Source: an uncultured Elusimicrobia bacterium | GTDB lineage: Bacteria > Elusimicrobiota > Elusimicrobia > UBA1565 > UBA9628 | Length of the DNA: 64,000 nucleotides | Reading direction: 5' to 3' | Assembly (NCBI GenBank): GCA_964510095.1 | Contig: CAZEAE010000002.1 | Span: 22,639-86,638, forward strand | Part shown: in pieces, positions 48,283 through 60,954 of the stretch | How the letters are laid out: each line of letters begins with the position of its first letter | How positions within the stretch are numbered: the first letter of the stretch is position 1 | The notes under the pieces: model-generated | Databases searched by the model: none | Told to the model about the DNA's origin: nothing | Seen by the model: only the letters and a program-made list of their open reading frames with translations | Position numbers and translations under genes: made by a program

Positions 48283-49182
48283 CTAGCCCTGGGTCGTCAA
48301 GGAGGCGAGCCGTTCCTCGAATCTGACCCGGGGGACGGCGCCTTCTTCCTTTAAGAGGAAATACTTGCTGGCCTTTTGGGACAGGATCGTGAGGAACTTG
48401 GCGGGCACGCCGGCGCGCCGATAGGCCGCCAGCTTGTGATGACCGTCGAGGACGAAGCCGGCGAAGAAGGAGTGCAGGTTCTTGTTCTGCCCTTTCTTGA
48501 CGGCTTCCGGGATGCCGCGCTGATACATGCCCAGCATCAGGATGCGCGGACGGTCGCCGTTGGTGATCATCGATTGATAGAGCTTGATGTATTCCTCTTT
48601 CAGCGCGGCGCGCGGCACCAGAGGGATGACGAAATCGAACTGCTTTTCCATGACGCCGGTGTCGGCGTTGCGGAAGATCCGGGGCCGCTGGCTCTCGTAG
48701 TGCTCCCAGCCGGACAGAAGGCCTTCTTCCTTCGGGTCCGAGATGTCCCAGAGCTCCATGAACTCGCTGTTGAAGAAATAAGAGCCTTCGTCCTCGCTGT
48801 CATAAGGTCCGCCCAGGTTGATGGAGGTCTCGAAGACCTCGTACTCGCCCTTCTCCATGAGGTCGAGCATCGGGGAGAGTTCCTGGACCATCGATTCGTC
48901 GATGGGACGGGGGAGCTGGATGGTCTTGGGGAGGTTGGCGATCTTCTTCTGGCTGGAGAGCCGCGGCTCGTGCAGGCACTTGAACCAGAAATGGCAGGTA
49001 TCGCAGTCGTTGCCGATCTCGAACTTGCGGGAGCCATTGATCTCAAGGAAGATGGAATTGGCTTCGCCGTGCTTCTTCTCCACGCCGATCTTGAAGAAAC
49101 CCTTGCCCTGGTTCAGCTTGACCTTCATCAGGCCGTCGGCCAACCGGGTGACCTCCAGCTTCGGAGCCGTTTCTGATTTCAT
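48283..49182 (-). CDS. Hypothetical protein (299 aa, no signal peptide, Cys cluster GNDCDTCHFWFKCLH), first gene of the giant-protein operon
   Basis: Clean ORF with slightly lower GC (about 60%) than its surroundings. No recognisable family. Confidence 0.55.
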   Translation of the reverse strand: MKSETAPKLEVTRLADGLMKVKLNQGKGFFKIGVEKKHGEANSIFLEINGSRKFEIGNDCDTCHFWFKCLHEPRLSSQKKIANLPKTIQLPRPIDESMVQELSPMLDLMEKGEYEVFETSINLGGPYDSEDEGSYFFNSEFMELWDISDPKEEGLLSGWEHYESQRPRIFRNADTGVMEKQFDFVIPLVPRAALKEEYIKLYQSMITNGDRPRILMLGMYQRGIPEAVKKGQNKNLHSFFAGFVLDGHHKLAAYRRAGVPAKFLTILSQKASKYFLLKEEGAVPRVRFEERLASLTTQG

Positions 49183-49248
49183 GAAAAGAGGATACCGCTA
49201 AAGCGTCCGGATGTCAAGCAACCGGAGGCGGCTGACATGCGCGACGCC

Positions 49249-49277
49249 TTGACAGATTCGGCCGCGAGGAGCATACT
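49249..49277 (+). promoter_or_regulatory. Sigma70-like promoter TTGACA-17 nt-CATACT placed for a leaderless PAS-kinase transcript
   Basis: The -10 hexamer ends 6 nt before the ATG at 49284. No SD. Confidence 0.4.
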
Positions 49278-49283
49278 TAGCCC

Positions 49284-50342
49284 ATGGCCGAGCGGACCTT
49301 CGAGGATGCCCTGCTCCGCGAGGCTTTCGCGCTCTCGGAAGAGCCTCTGGCGGCGCTCGACGCGGGACGCAAGATAAGGCTCTTCAGCCGCGGCGCGGCG
49401 CGCCTGCTGGGGCGCGACGCCTGCGGCCAGCCGGCTTCAAGCCTGTTCGCGGAACCTTCCGCCTGCGAGGACCTCCTGCTGCTGGCCGCCGAAAGCGGCT
49501 CGCTGTCTGGCTGCGAGGCTTGGCTCAAGCACAGCAACGGGGGGAGGCTTCGGCGCCGTGTCGGTGTCCGAACGCTCGAGGGAAAAGGGGCTCCCGCCGG
49601 CTGGCTATTGAGCTTCGAGGCCTCGGCGCCGCGGCAGGGAGCGGCGGCGAAAGGCGAAAAGACCGGCGCGCTCGTCCAGCTCGAGCGTTTTGCCGCGGTC
49701 GGCCGCATGGCCGCTTCCTTCGCCCATGACGTGCGCGGGCCGCTCCATGTGATAGCTTCCGCCTCCGAATCGGCGCTTTCCGGCATGCCTGAGGCCCACC
49801 CCCTGCGCCCCGCGCTCGACATGATCGGCCGCAATGCCGTTCATGCGGCGCTCTCGGCGCAGTCTCTGCTCGATTTCGCCAAGACCGGCAGCGCCCAGCT
49901 GAAGACCGAACCGCTGGATCCGGTCGTCTCCGCCGCGCTGAACCTGGCGGAGAAGGACTGCCTCGACGCCGGCATCAAGGTCCAGCGCGCCTTGGGGGAC
50001 CCGCCGGCGCTGCCCTTGGACGCCCGCCTCCTGCAGGGGGTGTTCTATAACCTGATCACCAACGCCCGGCAAGCGATGGCCCGCGGAGGGACCTTGACGG
50101 TCAGCACCGGCCGCGACCGCCGCGGCACCTTCGCCGTCGTGGCGGACACGGGAGCGGGGATGTCGGCCGAGACCCTGGGCCGAGCTTCGAAGGCATTTTT
50201 CACGACCAAAAGCTCCGGCACGGGCCTGGGTCTCTACGCTTGCCGCCTCATCCTGGCCGAGCATCAGGCCGAGCTCATCCTGGAGTCGGCCAAAGGACGC
50301 GGCACCTCGGCGCGCATCCGTTTCCAAGACTCGACTCAATAA
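49284..50342 (+). CDS. Cytoplasmic PAS-domain sensor histidine kinase
   Basis: No TM. N-terminal PAS-like region. H-box FAHDVRGPL. HATPase_c N/G boxes (YNLITNARQAM, DTGAGM, GTGLGLYACR). Confidence 0.85.
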   Translation: MAERTFEDALLREAFALSEEPLAALDAGRKIRLFSRGAARLLGRDACGQPASSLFAEPSACEDLLLLAAESGSLSGCEAWLKHSNGGRLRRRVGVRTLEGKGAPAGWLLSFEASAPRQGAAAKGEKTGALVQLERFAAVGRMAASFAHDVRGPLHVIASASESALSGMPEAHPLRPALDMIGRNAVHAALSAQSLLDFAKTGSAQLKTEPLDPVVSAALNLAEKDCLDAGIKVQRALGDPPALPLDARLLQGVFYNLITNARQAMARGGTLTVSTGRDRRGTFAVVADTGAGMSAETLGRASKAFFTTKSSGTGLGLYACRLILAEHQAELILESAKGRGTSARIRFQDSTQ

Positions 50343-50410
50343 ATCCGCAATACCGTTCTCCTATATTTAGAACGCTCACGGTTCAACAATCTAAAGGAAC
50401 GGAGAAATCG

Positions 50411-51208
50411 ATGCCTGAAGAGTCCCTCTGGCTGCGGCCCAGAGCCGCGGCGGCCCTCTCGCTGCTCCTGGTATTGAAGGCCCTGCCGGCTGCGGCCGCT
50501 CCGGCCGCCCAAGCCGTGCTCCGGCTGGACGGACGGCTGACGGACGCCTCTCAGGCTCCGCTGGCCGGCAACTATCTGCTGCGGTTCGGGATCTGGGACG
50601 CGCCTCGGGACGGCAGTGAGGTCTGGAGCGAGTCGCTCTACGTCAGCGCCAAGGACGGCTTCTATACGGCGCTTCTCGGGCGGCTCAAGCCTCTGCCCAC
50701 TACGGTGATGGATTCGGCCTACCGCCTAGAGGTCTCGGCTCCGCCCGGGACCGGCTGGCTGTCCCAGTCCTTGAAGGCGCCGACCCTGAGCCGGGGCGCC
50801 CCGGCGGAGCCGCAGTTCACTCCCGATCCCGGTCTGCGGGTCGAATCCGACCCGATCCAAGCCTCCGCGCCGGCGCCGGCATCGGAGCCGGTGAGGACCC
50901 CTCGGCCCGCGCCCACGGCGCCCCCGGCATCGTCCTCGGTCGTCGTGCTGCCCGACGCGGCGGCCTTGGCCAAGGAATTGGCCGCGGTCAAGGAAGAGCT
51001 GGACCGGCGCAAAACGGCGGGTTTCGAGACCAGGATCTACCAGGTCCTGGCCGGCGACACCCTGCGCAGCGTCGCCGTCAAGCTCTATGGCGACGCCGAG
51101 CGCTGGATAGACCTCTATCAAGCCAACGACGACCGGATATCGCGCGGCGGCGAGCTGATCGCAGGCCAGCGCCTGCTGGTCCCGCGCGAGGGCGCGATCA
51201 AGAGATAA
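50411..51208 (+). CDS. Secreted LysM-domain protein
   Basis: Signal peptide. Ala/Pro-rich linker. C-terminal LysM YQVLAGDTLRSVAVKLYGDAERWIDLYQANDDRI...GQRLLVP. GGAG SD. Confidence 0.75.
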   Translation: MPEESLWLRPRAAAALSLLLVLKALPAAAAPAAQAVLRLDGRLTDASQAPLAGNYLLRFGIWDAPRDGSEVWSESLYVSAKDGFYTALLGRLKPLPTTVMDSAYRLEVSAPPGTGWLSQSLKAPTLSRGAPAEPQFTPDPGLRVESDPIQASAPAPASEPVRTPRPAPTAPPASSSVVVLPDAAALAKELAAVKEELDRRKTAGFETRIYQVLAGDTLRSVAVKLYGDAERWIDLYQANDDRISRGGELIAGQRLLVPREGAIKR

Positions 51209-51214
51209 TCCGCG

Positions 51215-54200
51215 ATGAACGACTGGGACGAAGAAGCCCTGCGGGAGATCGGCAGCCTCGACGCCGCCCGTTTGGCTATCCGGGGGGCGCTGGCCACCAT
51301 CCGCGACCTCCAGGACATCAACTCCCAGGCCAAGGCGGAGATCCAGGACGAAGCCAGCAAGCGCAAGCATGTCGAAGCCAAGGCCGCCGAGCTCGCCGCC
51401 CAGCTGGAGCAATGGAAGAAGGAAGCCGAACAATGGGCGCAGGAGCGCGCCGAGCGGGCCAAGAACGAAGGCCAGTGGCGCGACTCCGCTCGCGCGCAGG
51501 TCCGCGCCGAGGAACGCGCGCGCATCGAGGAAGCGCGCGTCCGCGTCGATGAGGAGCTGGGCCGCCTGCGCGCCGAGCTGGAGAGCATGGTCCTGCTGCA
51601 GAAGGAGAAGGACCAGAAATGGTCGCTCCTCAAAAAGCAGGTCGAGGCCCGCGACGCCGAGCTGCTGGCCGCCCAGCGCGAGAAGCTCGACCTCAACAAC
51701 CGGTTCGCCCACGACGCCGATATGCTCGAGCGCATGCGCCAGCAGCGCGACCGCGAGATCGCCGCCTCCATCCGCAGCCGCGAGCTCGAGCTCGAGGACA
51801 AGCAGCGCGAGATCCAGGCGCTCAGATCCCAGGGCGACGAGCTCAAGCAGGTCCTGGCCGCCTCCGCTCAGGACCAGGAGCTCAAGAGCAAGGCCGCCGA
51901 AGAGAAGTTCATCCGCGACTACCGCGCCAAGGAACAAGCGCTCGTCGAAAAATACGCCAAGCGCGAGGCGGAGCTGCAGTCCTCTTGGTCCGAGCTGGAG
52001 AACGGGCTCTGGGCCAGGACCAAGGACGCGCGCGAGAAGCTGGACAAGGCCGTCCACAGCCAGTTCGAGGAGCGCGCCCGCTCCCTGGCGGACCGCACCA
52101 AGGAAACCGAGTCGCACCTGGCCGCGCGGGCCAAGGAGCTCGAAGAGTCTTTCATCCGCAAGTGCGCCGAGGCCGAGGCGCTCTACGCCCAGCGCGAGCA
52201 CGCCCTGCAGGAAGGCTGGCGCGACAAGGAGTCCAAGTCGATCCTGCGCTTCGAGGAAGAGCTGGCTCACGAGAAAGCCCTGGTCCAAGAGCAATCCGCG
52301 GCTCGAGGGAGGTCCGCGGAGGCCCTGCTCGATGAGAAGCTCCGCGAGCTCGCGCTGAAGGCCGAGCAGCTCGACGCCGAATTCCGCCACCGGACTTCGC
52401 TGGCGCTGGAGGATCATGCCCGCAAGGACGCCGAGCGCTTGCGCGCCCAAGACGATTTCGTGGCCCAGAAGGCCGCCGAGCTCGACGGCGAGCATCGCGC
52501 CAAGATCTCCGAGCTCAATGAGAAGGACGTCGTCCGCCAGGAGGCCTTCAACCTCAAGGAGACGGCCGCCTCTCAAGAGCTCAATCAGAAGAAGCTCGAT
52601 CTTCTAGAGCAGCACGAGCGCGCCGTCGAGCTGGAAAAATCCGCCCTTCACGAGCAGCTGGAGCAGAAGGCGCGCACCCTTGACGAGGCCTTCCGGGCCA
52701 AGGTCCTGGAGACCGAGCGCGCCCAGGCCGCCCTCGAGGAGCAGTATCGGAACTGGAAGGCCTCCGTGGTCGCCGACTACGCGCTGAAGGAGAAGGACCT
52801 CGACAAGCGCTGGCATACCAGGGAGCAGGAGCTTCTGCGCAACCATGCCATCGCCATGGAGACCCAGCGCGGCGATTTCCACATCGAGTCGCAGAAGACG
52901 CGCGACCAGTTCGAGCAGCAGCGCAAGCGCTCCGAGCTGGATTTCTTCGCCAGGGAAGCCAAGGCGAAGGATGCCTACGAGCGCCTGGAGCGAGAGCTCA
53001 AGGAGACCTGGGCCGCTCGCGAGGACGAGCTTCATAAGCTCCATGAGGCCCATCTCGAAGCCGCCCGCGAGCAGCACCGCAAGGAGCTCCGGCTTCACGC
53101 CGAGCACGCCGCCAACGAGACGGGGCGCGTCCGCACCGCCGGCGCGCTTGAAGCCAACGCCCTGCGCGAGGCCCACCAGAAGGACGCCGCGGCCAAGGAC
53201 CGCCAGCTGGCCGACAAGGAGCTCTTGCGGCAGGCTGAAGCCGATGCCGGCCAAGCCGCCGTCGCCAAGATCCGCGAGAAGCTGGCGGAAGCCGAGCGCA
53301 TGCACCAGGCCCTCACCCAGGACTTTTGGGCGCGCGAGCGCTCCTGGGAAGCCGAACGCCAGGGCGCGCGCGACCAGCAGAAGCAGCTCGACGCGGCGCG
53401 CGAGCAGAAATTCTTCGAGCTGGAGCGCTCGCTGCAGAGCGTCTGGAGCCGCAAGGAGGCCGAGGCGGCGGCCGCCCACCAAGCCGCCCTGGAGAAGCAG
53501 CACGCCTTGTTCCTGGAAGACCTGGCCCAGCGCGAGGAGGCCCATCGCCTGGCCTTCGACGAGCACAAGAAGCTGTCGGCCGTCGACCTCGAGCTGCAGA
53601 AGAAGGACTGGATGGACCGCCAAAGCCTCAGCCTCATCCAGGAGAAGGAGCGCCTGCAGGCCGAGAACCACCGCGTCCACGAGCAGCTGCAGAACGAAGG
53701 GCGCGCCCGAGAGAAGGAGCTGTCCGACCGGCGCAAGGCGCTGGAAGCCCATCACCACTTCGAGACCGAGCAGCAGACGAAGGAATGGAACAAGCGCGAG
53801 GCGCATCTGCGCCAGCAGCAGGCCGTCGACCTAGCCAAGGCCCGCGCCGAGCTCGACATCTCGCTGCGCGAGCGCGAGACTTCCTTGAACGAGCGCTACC
53901 TGGCCCTGGAGAAGGAGCTGCACGCCAACTGGGCCTCCAAGCAGCAGGCCGCCGACGAGCAGGGCAAGGCTCGGCTGGCCCAGGACCTCCACGCTCTGGA
54001 AGAGCGCGCCGCCCAGCGCCTCAAGCAGCTGGAAAGCGAGTTCCTCCTGCGAAAAGACGCCGAACTCTCCTCCCAGCGCAACGAGGTCGAAATCGAGCTT
54101 CAGCGCCGCCTCTCCGAGGTCGAGGCCAAGAAGGGCGAGCTCGAGCACGAATTCCTAGAGCGCCAGAAGCGCGCCGATCATGCCTATCTCGAGCGGGAGA

Positions 54201-57200
54201 AGGGCCTCGACCACGAATGGAAGGAGCGCGAGGCCCAGCTCATGGCCCGCATCGAGGACGAACGTCAGGAATACCGCGCCAAGCTGCAGATGGAGATCGA
54301 CCGCGTCCGCTCCGAGGCCGCCGCCCGCCTGCGCCAGAAGGAATTGGCGCTGGAGACCGAGAAGAGCGCGGCTATGGCGAAGGTCCAAGCGCAGCTCGAC
54401 GAGCAGCGCGCCGTCCTGGAGCATGAGAGCGCCCAATGGCTGGCCGCCCATAAGAAGACCATGGATTCCGAGCGCGAGACCCTGCAGGCCCAGACGCGCC
54501 GGGAGTTCGCCTCCGTGGCCGCCACGCTCAAACAGAAGGAAGACGAGCTGGGCAAGCGGCGCGAAGCCCTCGACGAGCACATCCGCCGCCGAGAAGCCGA
54601 ACTCGTCTCCCAGGCGCGCTCGAAGGAGAAGGAATTCGTCGAGCAGCAGCAGGCGCTGTCGGCCAAGGACCGAGCCGCCCTCGACGCGCTTTATCGGGAT
54701 CGCGAATCGTCGCTGCAGAAGAGCTACGTGGCGTTGGAAGCGGAGCTCAAAGGTTCCTGGGCGCAAAAGGACGCGCAGCTCAAGGCCGAGGGCGAGCAGC
54801 GCATGACCCACCATTTCAAGCTGCTCGACGAGCAATTCAGGGAAAAAGAAGCCCGGCTCGGTGAAGAGACCCGACGCAAGAACGAGGCTCTGCTCGAGGG
54901 CGAGCTGAAGTCGCTGCGCGCCGACTGGACGAAGCGCCGCGACGCCCTGGAGGCCGACAAGGCCCAGCGAGAGGCGGAACTGCGCCAACGCGAGCGGTCT
55001 GCCGAAGAAGCGCGCGCCGCGCAGGCCGCCGCGCTGCAGGCGGAGTCCGCCGCCGCCTTGGAGGCGGAGAGGCGCGCCCTCGAAGCGGAGCGCCAGGAGC
55101 TCGCGATCGCGGCCGCCAAGCGCGCCGCCGAGCTCGACCGCGCGAAGGCCGACATGGACAGGGAGCTGGCGCGCCAGCGCCTGGCGCAGGAACAGCAATC
55201 CCATAAGAGCGAGCTGGAACGCGCGGCGGCCTTCGAGAGGGAGAAGGCCGAGCTGGCCCGGCTGCTGGAGTCGCGCAAGGCCGAGCTCGACGCGGCCCGG
55301 GAAGCGCTGGACGCCTCCTATCAGGACAAGCATGCCGTGCTGGACTCCGAGATGGTCCGCCTCGCCGAACAGACCCAGAAGGCGCGCCTGGCCTTCGAGG
55401 CCCAGGCGCATCAGCGCGAGCTGGAGCGCGCCGCCGCCCTGGAGAAGGAGAAAGCCGGCCTCGAGACGGCCAAGCACGCGCTGGAGGCCGCCGGCCGCGT
55501 CAAGCAATCCGCGCTGGAAGCCGAGCGCAAGCGCTTGGCCGAAGAAGCTCAGAAGACGCGCTTGGCCTTCGAGCAGCAGGCCCGGCAGAAGGAGGTCGAG
55601 CGCGCGGCCGCCTTCGAGGCCGCCCAGGCAGAGCTCAAGGCCGCCAAGGAATCCGTCGAGGCCGAGCGCATCCGGCTCGCCGAGGAAGCCGAAAGGGGCC
55701 GGCGCGCCGCCGAGCAGTCGGCCCACGACGGCGAGAAAGCGCACCGCGCGCGGCTCGAAGAGGAGCGCGCGGCGATGGCCCGCGAATTCGAGGAGAAGCG
55801 CCGTCAGCTCGAGGCCGACCTGCGCGCCCGCGCCCAGCTGGTCGCCCGCGAGGAGAACCGCCTGGAGTCCGAGGTCGCCGTCAAGCTGGAAGAGCTCGAC
55901 GCCGCCAAGGCCGCCCTCGCCGTCTCCTTCCGCGCCAAGGAGCGTGAGCTCAACTCGACCGCCGAGGCCGCCCAGCGGAAGACGGAACAGCGGCTGCAGG
56001 CGGATCGCCTGAACCTGGAAAGCGAACGCACGGCTTTCAAGGAGAGCGTCGCCAACGGTAAAGCCGAGCTCGAGCGGGCTCAGGAGTCCTGGGAGGCCGA
56101 TCATCGCGAGAAGACGGCGGCCTGGCAGAAGGAGCAGCAGCAGCGTCTCAAGGAGGCGCAGGCGGTGCTGGAAGCCGAACGCCTGGCCTTGAAAGCCAAA
56201 GCTGCCGCGCTCGACGAGGTCAAGCGCGGAGAGCTTGACGCCGCGCGGGCCGAGTTGGAGGCCGCGCTCGAGACCGAACGGCAGAGGCTCGGGCGCGAGC
56301 GCGCCGAAGCGCAAGCCGAGGCCCTCAAGCTGCGCGCCGAGATCGAGAAGGCAAAACGCTCGGCGGAAAAACAGGACGCCGAGCGGCTGCGCCGCGCCGC
56401 TGCCGCCGAGGTCGCATCGGCGGAAGCCAAGGCAAAGGAGCTGGCGCAGGCCAAAGCCTCCTTGGACAAGGATTTCGACGACCGAGTGGCGCAAGCCCAG
56501 GCCGCCGCCGACGAGGAGCATCGCGCCCTGGAAGCCGAGCGCGCCTCCTGGCGGCAGGAATCCGCCAAAGCCCGCGCCTCCGCCGAGGCCGAGTTCAAGA
56601 GCCGCGAACGCCGTCTGGCCGACGACCTGCGCCGGGCGCAGGCCGCCGAAGCCGCGCTGGCGACTCAGGCCGCGGAGAACGCCGGACGCCTGGAGCGCGA
56701 GTTCAGCGACCGGACGGCGGAGCTCGAGGCCCGGACATCCGCCGCCGAGGCGGCGCGCCGGAAGCTCGAGCACGAGCTGGAGGCCGAGAAACGGCGGCTG
56801 GGCGACGCGCTCGAAGACGCCCGGGCCCAGACCGAGGCGCTCATCGAAGTGCGCGCCCGCCTGCTGCGCAAGCCCGCCAAGGGAGAAGCCGCCTCCGCCA
56901 TCATCGAGGCGGAGCTGGAGAACCTCCGCGAATCGCAGGCGGCTCTCGAGGCCGAGCGGGAGAAGCTGGAGAAACAGCGCGCCGAGACCCAGGCTGAGGC
57001 CGCCCGCCTGCGCGCCGAGGCCGAGAAGGACAAGCGGAACTCCGAGCGCCAGGCCGCCGAGCGCCAGCGCCAGGCGCTCGCCGCGGAGTCCGCCGCCGCC
57101 GAGGAGCGGGTCAAGGAGCTCGAAGAGGCCCGCCAGGCGCTGGAGAAGGATTTCGAGGAACGCTCCGCCGAGGCGCAGGAGGCGGTGGAGGCGCAGCGGC

Positions 57201-58240
57201 GCGAGTTGGCCGCCGAACGGGCCGCTTGGCGCGCGGAGGCGGCCAAGGCCCGGGCCGCCGTCGAAGCCGAGCTCAAGGCCAAGGAGCGCCGGCTCTCTTC
57301 AGGCCTGCGCAGCGCCGAAAGCAGCGAGAGCGTGTTGGCCGCCCAGTTCCGGCAGAAGGAAGCGCTCCTCGCGATGGAAACAGCCAAGCAGGCGGCGGAG
57401 CTGGAAGCCCGCGCTTCGGCGGCCGAAGCCGCCCGGAAGAAGCTCGAGGCCGAGCTCGAGGGCGAGCGCCGGCGCTTGGCCGAGGCCATCGAGGACGCGC
57501 GCAGCCAGGAGTCCGCGCTCAAGGAGGTCCGCGCCCGCCTGCTGCGCAAGCCCGCTAAGGGCGAGAGCGGCGCCTCCAACGCGGCGGAGCTCGAGAACCT
57601 CGTCTTCGGCGTGGCGCACCAGATCCGCAACCCCTTGGGCATCATCCGCAGCCTGGCGGAGTCGCGCCGCGGGCGCATGCTCGCCAGCTCAGGAGAGCGG
57701 CAGTCCCTCGACGCCATCCTGCGCGCCATCACGAACCTTTCGGAGCGCCTGGAGGACCTCGTCGACTTCTCGCGGCCCCTGCAGCTGAGCTTCAAGAAAC
57801 AGACTCCCGCCAAGCTGCTGACGGAGCTGCGCGAGCGCGTCGCGGCGCGCTGCCAGGCGCAGCAGGTGAGCCTGAGCGCCGAGAGCCCCGAGGACCTGCC
57901 GCCCGTCAACGTCGACAAGGCGAGCCTGCTGGAAGCCCTGCTCAACGTCGCCGTCAACGCTCTGGAAGCCATGCCGCAGGGCGGGAAGCTGAGCCTATCG
58001 GCCCGGCGCGACGCCGGCCGCGGCGAGATCGTCTTCACCCTTGAGGACACCGGCCCCGGCGCCGATCCCGAGCATCTGCCCCAATTAGGGACGCCTTTCT
58101 ACACCACCAAGCCCGGAGGCGTCGGCCTGGGTTTGGCCGCCGCGCGCCGCATCCTCGCCGCCCACGGCGGGACGTTGGAATTGTCTAGTCAGAAAGGGAA
58201 AGGCTGCCGAGTCGAGTGCCGCCTTCCGGAGGCCGGTTGA
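51215..58240 (+). CDS. Giant (2341 aa) cytoplasmic coiled-coil protein fused to a C-terminal histidine-kinase transmitter (HisKA + HATPase_c)
   Basis: About 2100 residues of uninterrupted E/R/A/K/Q/L-rich heptad-like sequence with no signal peptide or TM. C-terminus has H-box ELENLVFGVAHQIRNPLGIIRSL, N-box LLNVAVNALEAM, G1 DTGPGA, G2 GGVGLGLAAARR. Begins 6 nt after the LysM stop. Stop 2 nt before the response-regulator ATG. Confidence 0.85.
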   Translation: MNDWDEEALREIGSLDAARLAIRGALATIRDLQDINSQAKAEIQDEASKRKHVEAKAAELAAQLEQWKKEAEQWAQERAERAKNEGQWRDSARAQVRAEERARIEEARVRVDEELGRLRAELESMVLLQKEKDQKWSLLKKQVEARDAELLAAQREKLDLNNRFAHDADMLERMRQQRDREIAASIRSRELELEDKQREIQALRSQGDELKQVLAASAQDQELKSKAAEEKFIRDYRAKEQALVEKYAKREAELQSSWSELENGLWARTKDAREKLDKAVHSQFEERARSLADRTKETESHLAARAKELEESFIRKCAEAEALYAQREHALQEGWRDKESKSILRFEEELAHEKALVQEQSAARGRSAEALLDEKLRELALKAEQLDAEFRHRTSLALEDHARKDAERLRAQDDFVAQKAAELDGEHRAKISELNEKDVVRQEAFNLKETAASQELNQKKLDLLEQHERAVELEKSALHEQLEQKARTLDEAFRAKVLETERAQAALEEQYRNWKASVVADYALKEKDLDKRWHTREQELLRNHAIAMETQRGDFHIESQKTRDQFEQQRKRSELDFFAREAKAKDAYERLERELKETWAAREDELHKLHEAHLEAAREQHRKELRLHAEHAANETGRVRTAGALEANALREAHQKDAAAKDRQLADKELLRQAEADAGQAAVAKIREKLAEAERMHQALTQDFWARERSWEAERQGARDQQKQLDAAREQKFFELERSLQSVWSRKEAEAAAAHQAALEKQHALFLEDLAQREEAHRLAFDEHKKLSAVDLELQKKDWMDRQSLSLIQEKERLQAENHRVHEQLQNEGRAREKELSDRRKALEAHHHFETEQQTKEWNKREAHLRQQQAVDLAKARAELDISLRERETSLNERYLALEKELHANWASKQQAADEQGKARLAQDLHALEERAAQRLKQLESEFLLRKDAELSSQRNEVEIELQRRLSEVEAKKGELEHEFLERQKRADHAYLEREKGLDHEWKEREAQLMARIEDERQEYRAKLQMEIDRVRSEAAARLRQKELALETEKSAAMAKVQAQLDEQRAVLEHESAQWLAAHKKTMDSERETLQAQTRREFASVAATLKQKEDELGKRREALDEHIRRREAELVSQARSKEKEFVEQQQALSAKDRAALDALYRDRESSLQKSYVALEAELKGSWAQKDAQLKAEGEQRMTHHFKLLDEQFREKEARLGEETRRKNEALLEGELKSLRADWTKRRDALEADKAQREAELRQRERSAEEARAAQAAALQAESAAALEAERRALEAERQELAIAAAKRAAELDRAKADMDRELARQRLAQEQQSHKSELERAAAFEREKAELARLLESRKAELDAAREALDASYQDKHAVLDSEMVRLAEQTQKARLAFEAQAHQRELERAAALEKEKAGLETAKHALEAAGRVKQSALEAERKRLAEEAQKTRLAFEQQARQKEVERAAAFEAAQAELKAAKESVEAERIRLAEEAERGRRAAEQSAHDGEKAHRARLEEERAAMAREFEEKRRQLEADLRARAQLVAREENRLESEVAVKLEELDAAKAALAVSFRAKERELNSTAEAAQRKTEQRLQADRLNLESERTAFKESVANGKAELERAQESWEADHREKTAAWQKEQQQRLKEAQAVLEAERLALKAKAAALDEVKRGELDAARAELEAALETERQRLGRERAEAQAEALKLRAEIEKAKRSAEKQDAERLRRAAAAEVASAEAKAKELAQAKASLDKDFDDRVAQAQAAADEEHRALEAERASWRQESAKARASAEAEFKSRERRLADDLRRAQAAEAALATQAAENAGRLEREFSDRTAELEARTSAAEAARRKLEHELEAEKRRLGDALEDARAQTEALIEVRARLLRKPAKGEAASAIIEAELENLRESQAALEAEREKLEKQRAETQAEAARLRAEAEKDKRNSERQAAERQRQALAAESAAAEERVKELEEARQALEKDFEERSAEAQEAVEAQRRELAAERAAWRAEAAKARAAVEAELKAKERRLSSGLRSAESSESVLAAQFRQKEALLAMETAKQAAELEARASAAEAARKKLEAELEGERRRLAEAIEDARSQESALKEVRARLLRKPAKGESGASNAAELENLVFGVAHQIRNPLGIIRSLAESRRGRMLASSGERQSLDAILRAITNLSERLEDLVDFSRPLQLSFKKQTPAKLLTELRERVAARCQAQQVSLSAESPEDLPPVNVDKASLLEALLNVAVNALEAMPQGGKLSLSARRDAGRGEIVFTLEDTGPGADPEHLPQLGTPFYTTKPGGVGLGLAAARRILAAHGGTLELSSQKGKGCRVECRLPEAG
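56271..57578 (+). repeat. Diverged internal tandem duplication (about 650 bp x 2) within the coiled-coil kinase gene
   Basis: Two about 215-aa segments share collinear similarity (...LDKDFDDRVAQAQAA...ARLLRKPAKGEAAS vs ...LEKDFEERSAEAQEA...ARLLRKPAKGESGAS). The second copy ends exactly where the HisKA dimerisation region begins. Confidence 0.6.
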
Positions 58241-58242
58241 TC

Positions 58243-59436
58243 ATGGCTAAGGTATTGGTCGTAGACGACGAAGCGGACATGCGGCTGGCCTTGCGCACCG
58301 TGCTCGAGCAAGGAGGTCACTCCGTGGAAGAGGCGGGCGACGGCCCCGCCGCGCTGGAGCGCGTGGCGCGGGGGGGGCTCGACTTGGTCCTGCTCGACAT
58401 CCGCCTGCCCGGCATGGACGGCCGGCAGATCCTGCGGCGGATCCGGGAGCAGACCGCGGATCTGCCCGTCATCATGGTCAGCGGCTACGGCAGCGTGGAC
58501 TCCGCCGTCGAGGTCCTGCAGCTGGGCGCCAGCCACTATCTGGCCAAACCCTTCAGCAACAAGGAGCTCAGCGACACCATCGCCCGCGTCCTGGACCCCC
58601 AGCTGGCGCAGGAAGGAGCGCTGCGCCGCCGGCTTTCCCAGAAAGTCAGCGCGCTGGGCGCGGAAAGCCCGCCGCGGGCGGCGCAGGCGAGCTCCTTGCC
58701 CGTCTCGGCCCTGGCTATGGGCTTGGCGGCGGTCGTCCTGCTCGGCGGCCTCCGGTGGGCCTGGCGCTCGGAGAGCGGCGGCAGCACGACGATACCTTAC
58801 CTGCATCCGACGGCGATCTGCTGGGTCGGGGATACCCTCTGGAGCGCGGATTGGTTCACGCAGACGATCTACGAACAAAGGCTCAAGGGCTCGAAGCTCG
58901 AGCTGGTGCGCTCGGTGCGGCTCCCAGAGACGCACGTCACCGGGCTGACCGTGGTCGGAGACCGCCTTTACCTGACCGACTCATGGAAGAAAGTCGTCGA
59001 AAAGCGGCGGATCGACGCGACCCTCTCCCTGGTGGAATCCTCGCCCAGCCCCGGCTCCAAGCCCTCGGGCCTCTTCTGGGACGGCCGCTACCTCTGGTCG
59101 AGCGATTCGGCCACCGGGCGCTTCTATCAGCACGACGTCGATGGAAGCCTGAGCGTGCTGGCCTCCTACAAGAGCCCGGGGAAGACTCCGGCCGGCATGT
59201 ACAAGGACGCCCAGTACTTCTGGTCGGCCGACGCCGACACCCGCATGCTCTACCAGCACAGGCTCGACAACGAGCTGCGGGTCGTGGCGCGCTACAGCCT
59301 GCCGGCGCTCGACGAGGGCACGCAAGCCCTATCCTGCTTCACCTTCAAGGATGGACTGTTGTGGCTGGGCCGCGACGGCCGCGCCAAACTGCTCCGCTCG
59401 GAACTCAAGGCCTTCCGGAAGCTCTCGGCGTCCTAG
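58243..59436 (+). CDS. Response regulator with N-terminal REC domain, one TM segment and a C-terminal W/Y-rich beta-propeller-like repeat domain
   Basis: REC motifs (VLVVDDEADMRLAL, D54 in LVLLDIRLPGMDG, PVIMVSGYG, K in LAKPF). Hydrophobic segment LAMGLAAVVLLGGL. Five or more repeats of type YLWSSDSATGRFYQHD / YFWSADADTRMLYQHR. Confidence 0.8.
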   Translation: MAKVLVVDDEADMRLALRTVLEQGGHSVEEAGDGPAALERVARGGLDLVLLDIRLPGMDGRQILRRIREQTADLPVIMVSGYGSVDSAVEVLQLGASHYLAKPFSNKELSDTIARVLDPQLAQEGALRRRLSQKVSALGAESPPRAAQASSLPVSALAMGLAAVVLLGGLRWAWRSESGGSTTIPYLHPTAICWVGDTLWSADWFTQTIYEQRLKGSKLELVRSVRLPETHVTGLTVVGDRLYLTDSWKKVVEKRRIDATLSLVESSPSPGSKPSGLFWDGRYLWSSDSATGRFYQHDVDGSLSVLASYKSPGKTPAGMYKDAQYFWSADADTRMLYQHRLDNELRVVARYSLPALDEGTQALSCFTFKDGLLWLGRDGRAKLLRSELKAFRKLSAS

Positions 59437-59549
59437 GGAAGCCCCGTCGAGGAATGGCCTTGACAGGACGGGGCAATCCTGTTATAAATGAGTGTTCATC
59501 TAACCTCTGGGTTATAGAACGCCGAGACATCAGTGGGGGGGTAAATACT

Positions 59550-59822
59550 ATGAGCGAAGATAGAGGTAGCGCCGGGGTCCTGTTTTTCCTTGTCGGAGCC
59601 GCCGTCGGAGCCGGGCTGGGCGTCTTGTTCGCGCCGAAGGCCGGGAAAGAGACCCGCGAGCAGATCGGCGACTGGCTGAAGGAGCGCCGGGAAGCCGGTT
59701 CGGACCTGCTGGAGAAGATCAAGGAAGAGGGCTCCAGCAAGAAGGAGGCGATCACCGCCGCCATCAAGGCCGGAAAGCAGGCCTATAACGAGTCCAAGCA
59801 CCACGAATCGGTCAACTCCTAA
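59550..59822 (+). CDS. YtxH-like small membrane-associated protein
   Basis: 90 aa: N-terminal hydrophobic GVLFFLVGAAVGAGLGVLFAPKAGKETREQI followed by a charged helix. GGGGG SD. The track's 355-aa ORF is a spurious 5' extension. Confidence 0.7.
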   Translation: MSEDRGSAGVLFFLVGAAVGAGLGVLFAPKAGKETREQIGDWLKERREAGSDLLEKIKEEGSSKKEAITAAIKAGKQAYNESKHHESVNS

Positions 59823-59838
59823 GACCCGTTCGTCCGAT

Positions 59839-59872
59839 GAAGGCCCCCCGAAAGGGGGGCCTTCTTTTTTTC
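59839..59872 (+). terminator. Strong rho-independent terminator
   Basis: GAAGGCCCCCC-GAAA-GGGGGGCCTTC perfect 11-bp GC stem followed by T8. Confidence 0.85.
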
Positions 59873-59911
59873 TGATTTTAAGAGTTGACAAGCCTCGCCG
59901 CTCCTGTTAGC

Positions 59912-60340
59912 ATGGAGAGCAGAACCATGGCCAGTCCGCCGACCACTTCGTCGCGCCCGCAGGATAAGATGATCTTCGTCATCGATGACGATGCCACGGT
60001 CCGCGACCTGCTCGAGCTCCTGATCGAAGGCGAGGGCTTCCGCTGCGAGACCGCCGCGGACGGCGAGGAGGGGCTGCAGAAGATCGGCAAGCTTCGGCCC
60101 GACCTGATCCTTCTGGACCTCATGCTGCCGCGCTACGGAGGCATCGAGATCCTTCGTCAGCTGCAGACCGGAGACACCGCCTCCATCCCGATCGTGGTCG
60201 TGACCGGACGCTACGCCGACGCCACGACCTCGGAAATGATCCGCCAGGAACCCAACGTCGTCGATTTCATCGAGAAACCGATCAACACCAAGCCCTTCGG
60301 GCTGCTGCTCCACAAGATCCTCCAGACCAAGCCGATCTAA
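59912..60340 (+). CDS. Single-domain response regulator (CheY-like REC only)
   Basis: REC motifs (IFVIDDDATVRDLL, DLILLDLMLPRYGG, IPIVVVTGR, EKPI). ATG at 59912 chosen (in-frame TTG 59885 and ATG 59927 are alternatives). TTGACA -35-like hexamer at 59885. Confidence 0.85.
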   Translation: MESRTMASPPTTSSRPQDKMIFVIDDDATVRDLLELLIEGEGFRCETAADGEEGLQKIGKLRPDLILLDLMLPRYGGIEILRQLQTGDTASIPIVVVTGRYADATTSEMIRQEPNVVDFIEKPINTKPFGLLLHKILQTKPI

Positions 60341-60954
60341 GGACGGCGCTTGGCCTTGAGCAGCGGCGGCAGCGAGGCTCCCGCGGAGATCGCCGCCTGG
60401 ATCCCCTCCTGCAAGGTCAGCGGCGTCGCCAGGACCGCCTCCTTGGGGACCAGGATGTAGTCGCCGATGTACATGTGGTTCGTCGGGATGTAAACGCAGA
60501 CCATGGCCGAGACGACCTCCCCATCGGCCAGGCTCACCTCGTTGGTCAGAAAACCCACGGAATAGACGCCGGGCCGGGGGAATTCCACGAGGACGACGCT
60601 CTTGAACGAATTCTTCCCGTTCGGCGAGAAGAGCTCCGCCACCTGCTTGATCGTCTTGTACAGCCAGTTGAAGATCGGGATGCGAAGGAGCAGCTCCTCG
60701 AAAAGGTCGAGGAGATGCTGGCCGACGATGTTGCTGGCCAGCGCGCCGGTGCCCAGGATGACCGCCACCGCCGTGATCAGCCCCAGGCCGGGGATGCGTT
60801 GACCCGAGACCTGCGTGAGCGGCATCACCAGGCCCTCGATGAAGGCCACGAGCCAGGCCAGCAGCATGAAGGTCAGGCCGAAGGGGGCTAGGACGAAGAG
60901 GCCGGTCAGAAACAGCCGCTGCAGCCGCCGCAGCGTCAGCAGCACGCTCTTCAC
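60337..60954 (-). CDS. DUF502-family membrane protein
   Basis: 205 aa. Two N-terminal TM helices and conserved ...PIFNWLYKTIKQV...VVLVEFPRPGVYSVGFLT... pattern of DUF502. Confidence 0.8.
   Translation of the reverse strand: MKSVLLTLRRLQRLFLTGLFVLAPFGLTFMLLAWLVAFIEGLVMPLTQVSGQRIPGLGLITAVAVILGTGALASNIVGQHLLDLFEELLLRIPIFNWLYKTIKQVAELFSPNGKNSFKSVVLVEFPRPGVYSVGFLTNEVSLADGEVVSAMVCVYIPTNHMYIGDYILVPKEAVLATPLTLQEGIQAAISAGASLPPLLKAKRRP

What the first reader, a model, noticed from the sequence alone, without database searches (positions are those of the whole stretch)
51215..58240. A 2341-aa cytoplasmic coiled-coil rod fused to a histidine-kinase core
About 2100 consecutive residues are E/R/A/K/Q/L-rich coiled coil with no TM helix, signal peptide or recognisable sensor domain. 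Intact HisKA and HATPase_c modules (H-box AHQIRNPL, N, G1, G2 boxes) follow at the C-terminus. If helical throughout, the rod would span roughly 300 nm. Known coiled-coil kinases have signalling helices of tens of residues, not thousands, and I do not recognise this architecture. Possible roles are a cytoskeletal/scaffold-tethered kinase, a spatial ruler, or a filament-forming kinase. The 6-nt and 2-nt spacings to the flanking LysM and response-regulator genes indicate it is expressed as part of the operon.
Basis: partly seen in the sequence, partly recalled or inferred. Interest (0 to 1): 0.85.

Follow-up and report, generated by a model that had tools for sequence, protein, structure and literature searches.

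The report
Giant helical-rod histidine kinase of Elusimicrobia
This is a real 2341-residue cytoplasmic protein, a roughly 310-nm alpha-helical rod ending in a two-component kinase module, from a small undescribed family found only in Elusimicrobia; it sits in an operon whose response regulator has its output domain outside the cytoplasmic membrane.

Summary
Window 51215-58240 (+) is one uninterrupted 2341-aa ORF with uniform coding signal. Residues 1-2110 are helix-forming, with one proline and no TM helix, signal peptide or known domain. A Pro/Gly linker and an intact HisKA + HATPase_c core follow.

There are three corrections:
- The rod has an 11/3 (hendecad) hydrophobic period, as in FilP/Scy, not a heptad period.
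- The rod joins the kinase through a flexible linker, not a continuous signalling helix.
- The residue after the phospho-acceptor His is Gln in every His-bearing member read, not the acidic residue needed for autokinase activity.

The protein belongs to a small family seen only in Elusimicrobia MAGs. Kinase-bearing members range from 826 to 3956 aa. Relatives of 399-880 aa keep only the N-terminal module.

The predicted operon is: small soluble HK, exported LysM protein, giant protein, REC-TM-beta-propeller response regulator, YtxH.

My best reading is a self-associating scaffold that positions a transmitter acting on an inside-out, envelope-directed regulator. The anatomy and the family are shown by tool results. 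The mechanism is inferred. I class it as a new variant of a known kind, of moderately high interest.

The parts
49249..49277 (+). Sigma-70-like promoter match (TTGACA, 17-nt spacer, CATACT) just upstream of the first gene of the predicted operon.
   Evidence: 3 promoter-like sites were found in 48900-60500, against 0.5 expected from shuffles. This is a consensus match only.
49284..50342 (+). Small soluble histidine kinase of 352 aa: weak PAS-like N-terminus, HisKA and HATPase_c. H-box is A-H-D-V-R-G-P.
   Evidence: Pfam and translation. Orthologues occupy the same first position in L013, L015, L016 and L017, with H-[DE]-x-R-T.
50411..51208 (+). Exported LysM protein of 265 aa: signal-peptide-like N-terminus, Pro-rich linker and C-terminal LysM domain.
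   Evidence: LysM NF008399, E 2.8e-8. A weak or faint LysM match is recorded on the neighbouring protein in L013, L015 and L016 and is found directly in L002 and L009; the L014 neighbour has no Pfam hit on record.
51215..58240 (+). The giant rod-transmitter protein, 2341 aa.
51215..51349 (+). Conserved N-terminal head (aa 1-45): WDEEALREIxxLDAARLAIRGALATIRDLQDIN, the most conserved stretch of the family.
   Evidence: Invariant columns in alignments A1 and A3. A profile of the first 315 positions hits only 51 of 1.84 billion representative proteins.
51215..54004 (+). Conserved N-terminal rod module (aa 1 to about 930), colinear with the stand-alone 766-880-aa proteins of related Elusimicrobia.
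   Evidence: L004 aligns with query aa 3-923 (44 % identity), P0139 with 1-907, and L005-L007 and P0141 with 1-786. All of these end there without a kinase.
54005..57544 (+). Lineage-specific rod extension (aa 931-2110): richer in Ala, Glu and Arg and built from diverged internal duplications.
   Evidence: The hydrophobic period is still 3.6-3.66 residues.
56168..57526 (+). Two tandem units of about 226 aa (aa 1652-1878 and 1879-2104), 52-60 % identical in protein and at most 74 % in DNA.
57545..57580 (+). Pro/Gly linker RKPAKGESGASN (aa 2111-2122) between the rod and DHp helix 1.
   Evidence: A Pro- and/or Gly-containing stretch precedes the H-box in the relatives read.
57599..57775 (+). HisKA/DHp domain. 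His2135 is encoded at 57617-57619, followed by Gln2136, with Asn2139 at His+4.
57914..58234 (+). HATPase_c catalytic domain with N, G1 (DTGPG), F (PFYTTK) and G2 (GVGLGL) boxes.
58243..59436 (+). Response regulator of 397 aa: REC (aa 4-113, with D8, D9, D52, S80 and K102), one TM helix (about aa 154-175) and a five-bladed beta-propeller (about aa 179-395).
   Evidence: AF2 gives pLDDT 92.5. Foldseek matches bacterial and plant glutaminyl cyclases at TM-score 0.65-0.72. The family comprises 32 clusters, and every one that carries a source name is labelled Elusimicrobia.
59550..59822 (+). YtxH-like small protein of 90 aa, the last gene of the predicted operon.
   Evidence: Pfam YtxH, E 5.5e-16. 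YtxH follows the locus in L001 and L010-L017.
59839..59874 (+). Intrinsic-terminator-like hairpin: an 11-bp stem with 9 G-C pairs, followed by a T run.
59969..60340 (+). Single-domain CheY-like receiver downstream of the terminator, with its own promoter-like site at 59885-59913. It is possibly part of the same signalling network.

Best explanation
The ORF is a genuine single gene. It encodes a member of an undescribed family seen only in Elusimicrobia: very long cytoplasmic alpha-helical rods with hendecad (11/3) periodicity.

The ancestral, self-sufficient part is the N-terminal head plus about 800-900 residues of rod. Related genomes encode that part alone. In this lineage, internal duplications lengthened the rod to about 2110 residues, which is about 310 nm if fully extended. 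After a short flexible Pro/Gly linker it ends in an AtoS/ZraS-type HisKA + HATPase_c transmitter.

The gene is third in a five-gene predicted operon: small soluble HK, exported LysM protein, giant protein, REC-TM-beta-propeller response regulator, YtxH.

Proposed mechanism:
1. The rod dimerises. A DHp domain requires a dimer, and the rod probably forms a nearly unsupercoiled two-stranded coiled coil of the FilP/Scy kind. It may assemble further into a scaffold.
2. The rod thereby fixes where the transmitter sits in the cell. It does not transmit a conformational signal.
3. The transmitter acts on the REC domain of the membrane-anchored regulator encoded 2 nt downstream. Because the residue after the His is Gln in every His-bearing member, it may act mainly as a phosphatase or a weak kinase. 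The small canonical HK of the operon would then supply the phosphoryl groups.
4. The phosphorylation state of REC is relayed across the inner membrane to the glutaminyl-cyclase-like propeller. The propeller works in the periplasm alongside peptidoglycan-binding LysM proteins and, in relatives, AMIN-domain and outer-membrane-barrel proteins.

Shown by tool results: the ORF, its domains, the periodicity, the family, the synteny and the fold of the regulator. Inferred: the oligomeric state, the scaffold role, the cognate pairing, the phosphatase bias and the envelope target.
For: Gene and domains.

Rod properties: hendecad periodicity in this protein. Among relatives, the window-type members peak at 3.64-3.66 and the more distant P0002-type members (P0002, P0003, L009) at 3.56-3.58, all strongly periodic. 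The rod is uniformly helix-forming, and AF2 models aa 1-420 as all-helical.

Single-ORF architecture reproduced in independent assemblies: L013 2635 aa, L014 3661 aa, L015 2265 aa, L016 2262 aa, L009 3366 aa, P0002 3956 aa, P0156 3751 aa, P0155 1725 aa and P0175 826 aa.

Kinase-less relatives at the syntenic locus: P0094 399 aa, L004 880 aa and L005-L007 about 770 aa.

Degenerate intermediate: P0001 (1506 aa) has His replaced by Gly, a degenerate G2 box and no regulator downstream.

Regulator placement: it lies directly downstream of the giant gene in all 9 loci where I could look: the window, L002, L003, L009, L012-L016, and L017 where the giant gene is fragmented.

Phyletic pattern: the small HK, LysM protein, transmitter and regulator are present together or absent together.

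Linker.

His+1 residue: it is Gln in 13 of 13 His-bearing members. It is Glu or Asp in 75 of 76 of the nearest non-family HKs. Willett & Kirby 2012 (PMC3510030) showed that this acidic residue is needed for kinase but not phosphatase activity, and that Thr/Asn at His+4 is needed for phosphatase activity.

Regulator fold.

Operon boundaries.

Background on hendecads, including Ala-rich cores in the dimeric FilP and Scy: PMC9858780.
Against: - No experiment or multimer model supports dimerisation, filament formation or localisation.
- The hydrophobic stripe is weak. Strong hydrophobic residues make up 19 % of the rod and only 27-43 % of the positions on the hydrophobic face. Parts of the rod could be single helices.
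- The CA domain is fully conserved across the family. That would be unexpected for a pure phosphatase. The effect of Gln at His+1, as opposed to Ala, was not looked up.
- The window's own small HK lacks Thr/Asn at His+4, but its orthologues have Thr. The complementary kinase/phosphatase picture is therefore not general.
- The AF2 model of the N-terminus has pTM 0.26 and shows a possible break at aa 215-227. Fold-back geometries are not excluded.
- A 98 %-identical copy in another assembly (P0135) carries a +1 frameshift at aa 934. This could be a sequencing error or a natural truncation.
Confidence: 0.55

Rival explanations
1. The rod is itself the sensor: a mechanical or geometric gauge ('spatial ruler'). 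Strain or end-to-end contact would be transmitted along the coiled coil to switch the kinase.
For: The protein has no other sensor domain. At about 310 nm the rod is comparable to the width of a small cell (length; cell size from my own knowledge of Elusimicrobium). The hydrophobic phase stays coherent over stretches of 400-600 residues.
Against: The Pro/Gly linker decouples the rod from DHp helix 1. Rod length varies about six-fold among kinase-bearing relatives, from about 580 to about 3700 residues, through lineage-specific duplications. Relatives keep the rod without any kinase.
Confidence: 0.12
2. The rod is not a coiled coil. It is a giant 11-mer-repeat amphipathic helix of the apolipoprotein, LEA or perilipin kind that coats the inner face of the membrane. 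The kinase would then report membrane state, for example stress or curvature.
For: An 11/3 periodicity is the hallmark of such helices. A YtxH gene always follows the locus; YtxH is a membrane-anchored small protein, and one orthologue gives a weak Apolipoprotein Pfam hit. The partner regulator is membrane-anchored.
Against: The rod has a net charge of -51, which is unfavourable on anionic bacterial membranes. The hydrophobic stripe is narrow, with about two large hydrophobic residues per 11 plus Ala. There is no Pro punctuation and no Pfam Apolipoprotein or LEA match.
Confidence: 0.1
3. The rod folds back on itself, as an SMC-like antiparallel hairpin or a bundle of several segments. The particle would be much shorter than 310 nm, and the conserved N-terminal head would lie next to the transmitter and regulate it.
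For: The head and the transmitter are the two most conserved parts in kinase-bearing members of both subfamilies. AF2 shows a low-confidence break at aa 215-227. There are about 20 changes of hydrophobic phase along the rod.
Against: The N-terminal module exists alone in relatives, so it does not need a C-terminal partner strand. The rod has only one Pro and very few Gly-rich breaks. There is no length symmetry between the halves.
Confidence: 0.13
4. Assembly or annotation artefact: there are really two genes, a coiled-coil gene of about 930 aa and a separate coiled-coil kinase gene, fused by an indel or a mis-join.
For: P0135, a 98 %-identical copy from another assembly, shifts frame at aa 934. 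Natural kinase-less relatives end at the equivalent of aa 790-925. A low-coverage assembly (L017) shows the gene in pieces.
Against: The window ORF is uninterrupted with uniform GC3. L013, L015, L016 and P0001 run colinearly through the junction: their alignments cover query aa 1-1533, 1-1573, 1-1253 and 4-1061. There are no near-identical repeats that could cause a mis-join.
Confidence: 0.04

Closest known systems
FilP and Scy of Streptomyces (bacterial intermediate-filament-like proteins with hendecad coiled coils)
   Same: Both are long cytoplasmic alpha-helical rods with a hydrophobic period near 11/3 and a high Ala content. They are dimeric and little supercoiled (background from PMC9858780; periodicity and Ala content here).
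   Different: No sequence similarity was detected. The DivIVA-like N-terminal motif RGYDxxEVD is absent. This rod is 1.6 to 3 times the length of Scy (about 1300 aa, from my own knowledge). It carries a C-terminal two-component transmitter. It comes from a different phylum.
AglZ and FrzS of Myxococcus xanthus (two-component receiver domain fused to a long coiled coil) - from my own knowledge, not tested here
   Same: A two-component module is fused to a long cytoplasmic coiled coil that serves localisation or scaffolding rather than sensing.
   Different: Those proteins carry an N-terminal (pseudo-)receiver. Here the module is a C-terminal HisKA + HATPase_c transmitter. Their coils are heptad-type and myosin-like. 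They are not homologous to this protein.
Scaffold-localised cell-cycle kinases of Caulobacter: PleC recruited by the coiled-coil protein PodJ, DivJ by SpmX, and the pseudokinase DivL - from my own knowledge, apart from the PDB hit
   Same: In both, a HisKA-type kinase or phosphatase has an output that depends on where a coiled-coil scaffold places it. A kinase and a phosphatase act on one receiver. DivL is among the closest solved relatives of the transmitter (4q20, E 1.8e-21).
   Different: There the scaffold and the kinase are separate proteins. Here they are one polypeptide. The downstream regulator here is a transmembrane protein.
AtoS, ZraS and NtrB-type class I histidine kinases
   Same: The DHp + CA core aligns best with these kinases: ZraS 9jfj at E 5.5e-30 and the NCBIfam AtoS model at 154 bits. 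The H-x-x-R-N-P-L H-box, the FxTTK F-box and the G2 box are shared.
   Different: All scores fall far below the equivalog cutoffs. There are no TM, HAMP or PAS input domains. Gln replaces Glu at His+1. The input side is a 2110-residue rod.

Membership tests
Class I (HisKA-type) histidine kinase transmitter | DHp/HisKA domain with a phospho-acceptor His in an H-box | tested here: met
   Pfam HisKA scores 33.4 bits against a cutoff of 26.9. His2135 aligns with the His of ZraS and KinB.
Class I (HisKA-type) histidine kinase transmitter | HATPase_c domain with N, G1, F and G2 boxes | tested here: met
   Pfam HATPase_c scores 79 bits. The boxes are visible in the alignments.
Class I (HisKA-type) histidine kinase transmitter | Acidic residue (Glu or Asp) immediately after the His, required for autokinase activity (Willett & Kirby 2012, PMC3510030) | tested here: not met
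   The residue is Gln2136. It is Gln in 13 of 13 His-bearing family members. It is Glu or Asp in 75 of 76 of the nearest non-family HKs.
Class I (HisKA-type) histidine kinase transmitter | Thr or Asn at His+4, required for phosphatase activity | tested here: met
   Asn2139 in the H-box H-Q-I-R-N-P.
Class I (HisKA-type) histidine kinase transmitter | Adjacent cognate response regulator with an intact receiver | tested here: met
   The REC domain scores 108 bits, and D8, D9, D52, S80 and K102 are present. The gene starts 2 nt downstream. This adjacency is conserved in all 9 loci examined.
Class I (HisKA-type) histidine kinase transmitter | ATP-dependent autophosphorylation and phosphotransfer | not testable with these tools
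   This needs biochemical assays.
Canonical heptad coiled coil or signalling helix feeding a DHp domain | Hydrophobic periodicity of 3.5 residues | tested here: not met
   The peak is at 3.66 residues (z 21.3). At 3.5 residues z is 5.3. The strongest autocorrelation lag is 11.
Canonical heptad coiled coil or signalling helix feeding a DHp domain | Helix continuous into DHp helix 1 | tested here: not met
   The linker RKPAKGESGASN (aa 2111-2122) contains Pro and two Gly, and the first sustained drop in helix-former content along the rod falls here (aa 2108-2139, 53 %). This rests on sequence alone. No structural model was made of this junction.
FilP/Scy-type bacterial IF-like hendecad proteins (DivIVA-like superfamily) | Extended hendecad periodicity with an Ala-rich core | tested here: met
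   The period is 11/3 and coherent across the 2100 residues. Ala is 20 % of the rod. About two large hydrophobic residues occur per 11 positions, spaced 7 and 4 apart.
FilP/Scy-type bacterial IF-like hendecad proteins (DivIVA-like superfamily) | N-terminal DivIVA-like motif RGYDxxEVD (search pattern GY[DN]xx[QE]V[DN]) | tested here: not met
   The pattern is absent. There is no Pfam DivIVA hit.
FilP/Scy-type bacterial IF-like hendecad proteins (DivIVA-like superfamily) | Self-assembly into filaments or networks | not testable with these tools
   This needs purified protein and electron microscopy.
Apolipoprotein, LEA or perilipin 11-mer amphipathic helices | 11-mer periodicity | tested here: met
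Apolipoprotein, LEA or perilipin 11-mer amphipathic helices | Profile match, Pro-punctuated 22-mers, and a lipid-compatible (neutral or cationic) interface | tested here: not met
   There is no Pfam match. The rod has one Pro in 2100 residues. Its net charge is -51.
SMC, Rad50 or MukB-type long coiled-coil ATPases | ABC-type ATPase head domains flanking an antiparallel coil with a hinge | tested here: not met
   No SMC_N or other ABC-ATPase head-domain match was found on the giant protein.
The family defined here (Elusimicrobia rod proteins) | N-terminal head WDEEAxREIxxLDAARLAxRGALATIRDLQD followed by a hendecad rod | tested here: met
   Alignments A1 and A3. 51 hits among 1.84 billion representatives. 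All 6 genome hits are Elusimicrobia MAGs.

The most novel reading that the evidence does not exclude
The rod is a genuine cytoskeletal filament or scaffold of Elusimicrobia that carries its own two-component transmitter. With the diffusible small kinase of the operon, it would set up a spatially patterned phosphorylation state of a transmembrane response regulator. The glutaminyl-cyclase-like propeller of that regulator would then act in the periplasm on peptidoglycan- and outer-membrane-associated partners (LysM, AMIN and beta-barrel proteins). That would be a cytoskeleton-coupled, inside-out two-component pathway controlling envelope growth or division. Neither the input type (a scaffold) nor the output type (a periplasmic domain on a receiver protein) has been described before.
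Probability: 0.25. Interest if true: 0.8.

Novelty: new variant of a known kind. Interest (0 to 1): 0.62.

Why it matters
If the reading is right, it would matter in four ways:
- It adds a third way of feeding a histidine kinase, besides ligand-binding sensor domains and accessory proteins: covalent attachment to a structural rod hundreds of nanometres long.
- The family holds what may be among the longest hendecad helices known, with 2100 to about 3700 residues. That makes it a natural test bed for non-heptad coiled-coil structure.
- The graded series within one clade captures the gain or loss of a signalling module on a structural protein. The series runs from 399-880-aa rods without a kinase, through a 1506-aa form with a dead transmitter and no regulator, to 826-3956-aa forms with transmitter and regulator.
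- The partner regulator (REC, TM helix, periplasmic beta-propeller) implies phosphorylation-controlled signalling from the cytoplasm outward. That is rare and mechanistically unexplored.

All of this lies in a phylum with almost no cell biology.

Tried and rejected
- Whole-protein self-BLAST returned only the identity hit, because contained HSPs are culled. I replaced it with chunk-against-chunk BLAST.
- A heptad-register scan gave only a weak signal, with the register jumping by +4. That led me to the hendecad analysis. No standard coiled-coil predictor (COILS, MARCOIL, DeepCoil) was available.
- Pfam at E up to 1 on three rod segments gave only noise hits, CueP and MtrF.
- NCBIfam gave only sub-threshold matches to the kinase core.
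- A profile of the N-terminus against PDB sequences gave only coiled-coil noise: FtsB, vimentin and a nucleoprotein, all at E of about 0.01 or worse.
- The DivIVA-like motif is absent.
- A pure single-alpha-helix (ER/K) domain is rejected. Glu-to-Lys/Arg pairs at i and i+4 are only mildly enriched (z 3.5). The rod has 19 % strong hydrophobic residues and a z-21 hydrophobic periodicity.
- The AF2 monomer model of aa 1-420 is helical but has pTM 0.26. I did not use it for a fold search.
- Exact-sequence cluster look-up of the window protein and of the L013, L015 and L016 giants found nothing. So I recovered no database names for them.
- Literature searches for a hendecad or long-coiled-coil histidine kinase, or for Elusimicrobia coiled coils, found no description.
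The metagenome-contig scan was not used.


Full report
**1. The observation**

Window 51215-58240 (+) is a single ATG-initiated ORF of 2341 codons with no internal stop. Third-position GC is 0.88 overall and 0.85-0.91 in every 900-nt block, the signature of real coding sequence in this 67 % GC genome.

Pfam finds HisKA at aa 2129-2187 and HATPase_c at aa 2234-2340, both above their gathering scores, and nothing else. The last 261 residues align over their whole length with solved kinase cores: ZraS at E 5.5e-30, then KinB and DivL. The H-box His and the N, G1, F and G2 boxes are all in place.

The first 2100 residues are 75 % A/E/R/K/Q/L and contain one proline. Hydrophobicity never approaches TM-helix values; the maximum 19-residue Kyte-Doolittle mean is 1.15. 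Only one 30-residue window (aa 533-562, 57 %) falls below 60 % helix-favouring residues before aa 2108. AF2 models aa 1-420 as two long helices with no globular packing (pTM 0.26).

The best internal DNA repeat is only 74 % identical, and TRF finds no array. Repeat-driven misassembly is therefore unlikely.

**2. Three corrections to the anatomy**

First, the rod is not a heptad coiled coil. The hydrophobic power spectrum peaks at 3.66 residues (z 21), against z 5 at 3.5. Autocorrelation peaks fall at lags 11, 22, 33, 44, 55 and 66, with side peaks at 7, 18, 29 and 40. The 11/3 signal stays coherent over the whole 2100 residues. A heptad-register scan shows the expected repeated +4 register jumps. 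Large hydrophobic residues are spaced 7 and 4 apart, about two per 11 positions, and Ala makes up 20 % of the rod. This is the pattern described for the dimeric, barely supercoiled hendecad coils of FilP and Scy (PMC9858780).

Second, the rod does not run into the kinase as a continuous helix. RKPAKGESGASN (aa 2111-2122) intervenes, and the relatives I read have a Pro- and/or Gly-containing stretch before the H-box.

Third, the H-box reads A-H-Q-I-R-N-P. The residue after the His is Gln in all 13 His-bearing family members. In the nearest non-family kinases it is Glu or Asp in 75 of 76. Willett & Kirby showed for four HisKA kinases that this acidic residue is needed for kinase but not phosphatase activity. 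They also showed that Thr/Asn at His+4, present here as Asn2139, is needed for phosphatase activity (PMC3510030).

**3. The family**

Searching with the whole protein found three long relatives that have no Pfam domain on record other than HATPase_c: P0001, P0002 and P0003. A scan of one genome per species with the N-terminal alignment returned six loci, all in Elusimicrobia MAGs. A profile of the first 315 positions hit only 51 of 1.84 billion representative proteins.

Kinase-bearing members are:
- the window protein, 2341 aa
- L016, 2262 aa
- L015, 2265 aa
- L013, 2635 aa
- L014, 3661 aa
- L012, at least 1294 aa (cut by the contig end)
- P0175, 826 aa
- P0155, 1725 aa
- P0003, at least 1824 aa (cut by the contig end)
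- L009, 3366 aa
- P0156, 3751 aa
- P0002, 3956 aa

All share the head motif LDAARLAxRGALxxxxxLQD and a strong non-heptad periodicity.

Rod length changes through lineage-specific segmental duplications of 150-550 residues. In the window these include two 226-residue units that are 52-60 % identical.

Several relatives at the syntenic locus consist only of the N-terminal module and end at the equivalent of window aa 790-925. They are P0094 (399 aa), L005-L007 (about 770 aa), L004 (880 aa) and P0139 (867 aa).

P0001 (1506 aa) is an intermediate. It keeps the transmitter fold, but Gly replaces the His, the G2 box is degenerate, and no regulator gene follows.

The single-ORF architecture of the window is reproduced colinearly through the aa 930 junction in L013, L015, L016 and P0001. 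One 98 %-identical copy from another assembly (P0135) has a +1 frameshift at aa 934. A low-coverage assembly shows the gene in fragments. I read both as assembly errors, but a natural truncation in that strain cannot be excluded.

**4. Genomic context**

A promoter-like site at 49249-49277 precedes a small soluble HK (49284-50342). An 11-bp GC-rich hairpin with a T run at 59839-59874 follows a previously unlisted YtxH gene (59550-59822).

The predicted unit is: small HK, exported LysM protein (50411-51208), giant protein, response regulator (58243-59436), YtxH.

The same five genes in the same order occur in two GenBank MAGs, L015 and L016. L013, L014 and L017 have the same genes with minor permutations. 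L013 and L014 add an AMIN-domain protein and a BBP2_2 outer-membrane barrel. In the more distant subfamily (L002, L009), the upstream protein has weak outer-membrane-barrel-like matches and a C-terminal LysM domain, and the regulator again follows the giant gene.

The kinase-less loci lack the small HK, the LysM protein and the regulator. So the transmitter, the regulator, the small HK and LysM are gained or lost together.

The flanking genes are housekeeping genes syntenic with an Elusimicrobia MAG: BipA, an MscS-like channel, an M24 peptidase, DUF502, SDR and ECH.

**5. The partner regulator**

The regulator has a canonical receiver with D8, D9, D52, S80 and K102. It then has one hydrophobic helix and a 220-residue domain rich in Trp and Asp. 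With 31 homologues, AF2 gives pLDDT 92.5: a helix at aa 154-175 followed by an all-beta propeller. The only full-length structural matches are the five-bladed glutaminyl cyclases of Xanthomonas, Zymomonas, Myxococcus and papaya, at TM-score 0.65-0.72. One distant sequence hit is named glutamine cyclotransferase by its source.

The receiver must face the cytoplasmic kinases, so the propeller is predicted to be periplasmic. This regulator family comprises 32 clusters, and every one that carries a source name is labelled Elusimicrobia. In every locus I examined it lies directly downstream of a giant rod-kinase gene.

**6. Interpretation**

The conserved, self-sufficient part of the family is the head plus about 800-900 residues of hendecad rod. 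The transmitter is an accessory that comes with its own regulator. The flexible linker and the six-fold variation in rod length argue against the rod being an allosteric transmission element or a fixed ruler.

The most economical reading is a structural scaffold, dimeric at least at its C-terminal end because a DHp domain is a dimer. The scaffold would determine where the transmitter acts. The invariant Gln at His+1, together with a canonical small kinase in the same operon, suggests the tethered transmitter may work chiefly as a phosphatase or a weak kinase on the membrane-anchored regulator. This would resemble spatially separated kinase/phosphatase pairs, but the fully conserved ATP-binding domain cautions against calling it a pure phosphatase.

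The output is a periplasmic propeller encoded beside peptidoglycan-binding proteins, and in relatives beside outer-membrane proteins. This points to the cell envelope.

These functional steps are inferences. Nothing here tests oligomeric state, localisation, catalysis or topology.

**7. Rivals**

- A mechanosensor or ruler.
- An apolipoprotein- or LEA-like membrane-coating amphipathic helix. The 11-mer period and the YtxH neighbour favour it. The net charge of -51, the narrow hydrophobic stripe, the absence of Pro punctuation and the absence of a profile match count against it.
- A fold-back geometry that brings the head to the kinase.
- A two-gene artefact.

Each remains possible at low probability. 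The tests that would separate them are listed under decisive next steps.

**8. Novelty**

The kinase core is an ordinary AtoS/ZraS-type transmitter. What appears undescribed is the input side and the regulator. The input side is an Elusimicrobia-restricted hendecad rod of up to about 3700 residues with a conserved head. It has no Pfam, NCBIfam or PDB relative and lacks the DivIVA-like motif of FilP and Scy. The regulator combines REC, a TM helix and a propeller. Full-text searches found no report of either. An older survey found almost no bacterial coiled-coil domains longer than 250 residues outside SMC-like proteins (PMC1322226).

I class it as a new variant of a known kind: a two-component transmitter on a novel structural input, paired with a novel output.

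Noticed in passing
window 58243-59436 (+): This response regulator has a canonical REC domain, one TM helix and a predicted periplasmic five-bladed beta-propeller resembling bacterial and plant glutaminyl cyclases (AF2 pLDDT 92.5; Foldseek TM-score 0.65-0.72). The family comprises 32 clusters, and those carrying a source name are all labelled Elusimicrobia. It lies downstream of a giant rod-kinase in every locus examined. An 'inside-out' receiver protein of this kind seems to be undescribed.
   Followed up: yes
window 42669-48149 (-): This 1826-aa protein has no Pfam or NCBIfam match. It has a signal-peptide-like N-terminus, about nine tandem PKIVEGEFGPDGKPRVKSEA repeats, a poly-Gly run of about 35 residues and a C-terminal TM anchor. 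A gene of 1805 aa sits at the same position in L015.
   Followed up: partly
window 48283-49182 (-): This 299-aa protein has no known domain. It is transcribed divergently from the operon and is conserved at that position in L004, L006, L010, L011, L013, L015, L016 and L017, whether or not the rod protein carries a kinase. It may be functionally tied to the rod protein.
   Followed up: partly
window 59550-59822 (+): A 90-aa YtxH-like gene (Pfam E 5.5e-16) is hidden inside a longer spurious ORF. It is followed by a strong terminator-like hairpin at 59839-59874. YtxH follows the rod locus in most relatives, including those without a kinase.
   Followed up: yes
window 49284-50342 (+): The small soluble HK of the operon has H-D-V-R-G in its H-box. 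The acidic residue is present, but Gly replaces Thr/Asn at His+4. That is the reverse of the giant protein, which has H-Q-I-R-N. Its four orthologues have Thr at His+4, so the complementarity is specific to this genome.
   Followed up: partly
P0135 (another assembly); equivalent to window position about 54015: A 98 %-identical copy of the giant gene in a public assembly shifts frame (+1) at aa 934 and ends at 980 aa. This is close to where the natural kinase-less relatives end. It is either a sequencing error or a natural truncated allele.
   Followed up: partly
L001 (P0001, 1506 aa): This close relative keeps the transmitter fold, but Gly replaces the phospho-acceptor His (AGQVRRP), the G2 box is degenerate, and YtxH follows instead of a regulator. 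It looks like a pseudokinase stage in the loss of the signalling module.
   Followed up: partly
window 20900-24760 (+): This 1286-aa thermolysin-like (M4) peptidase has FTP and PepSY propeptide motifs and a C-terminal FlgD_ig-type domain. It is followed by a protein with a weak UPF0164 match (E 1.3e-4).
   Followed up: no
window 59969-60340 (+): A single-domain CheY-like receiver has its own promoter-like site (59885-59913), just after the operon terminator. No counterpart appears at this position in the relatives' gene lists.
   Followed up: no
L013 12509-15071 and L014 12268-17575: In relatives, the operon also encodes a BBP2_2 outer-membrane beta-barrel and an AMIN-domain protein. In L002 and L009 the upstream protein has weak outer-membrane-barrel-like Pfam matches and a C-terminal LysM domain. 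This hints at a complex spanning the envelope.
   Followed up: partly
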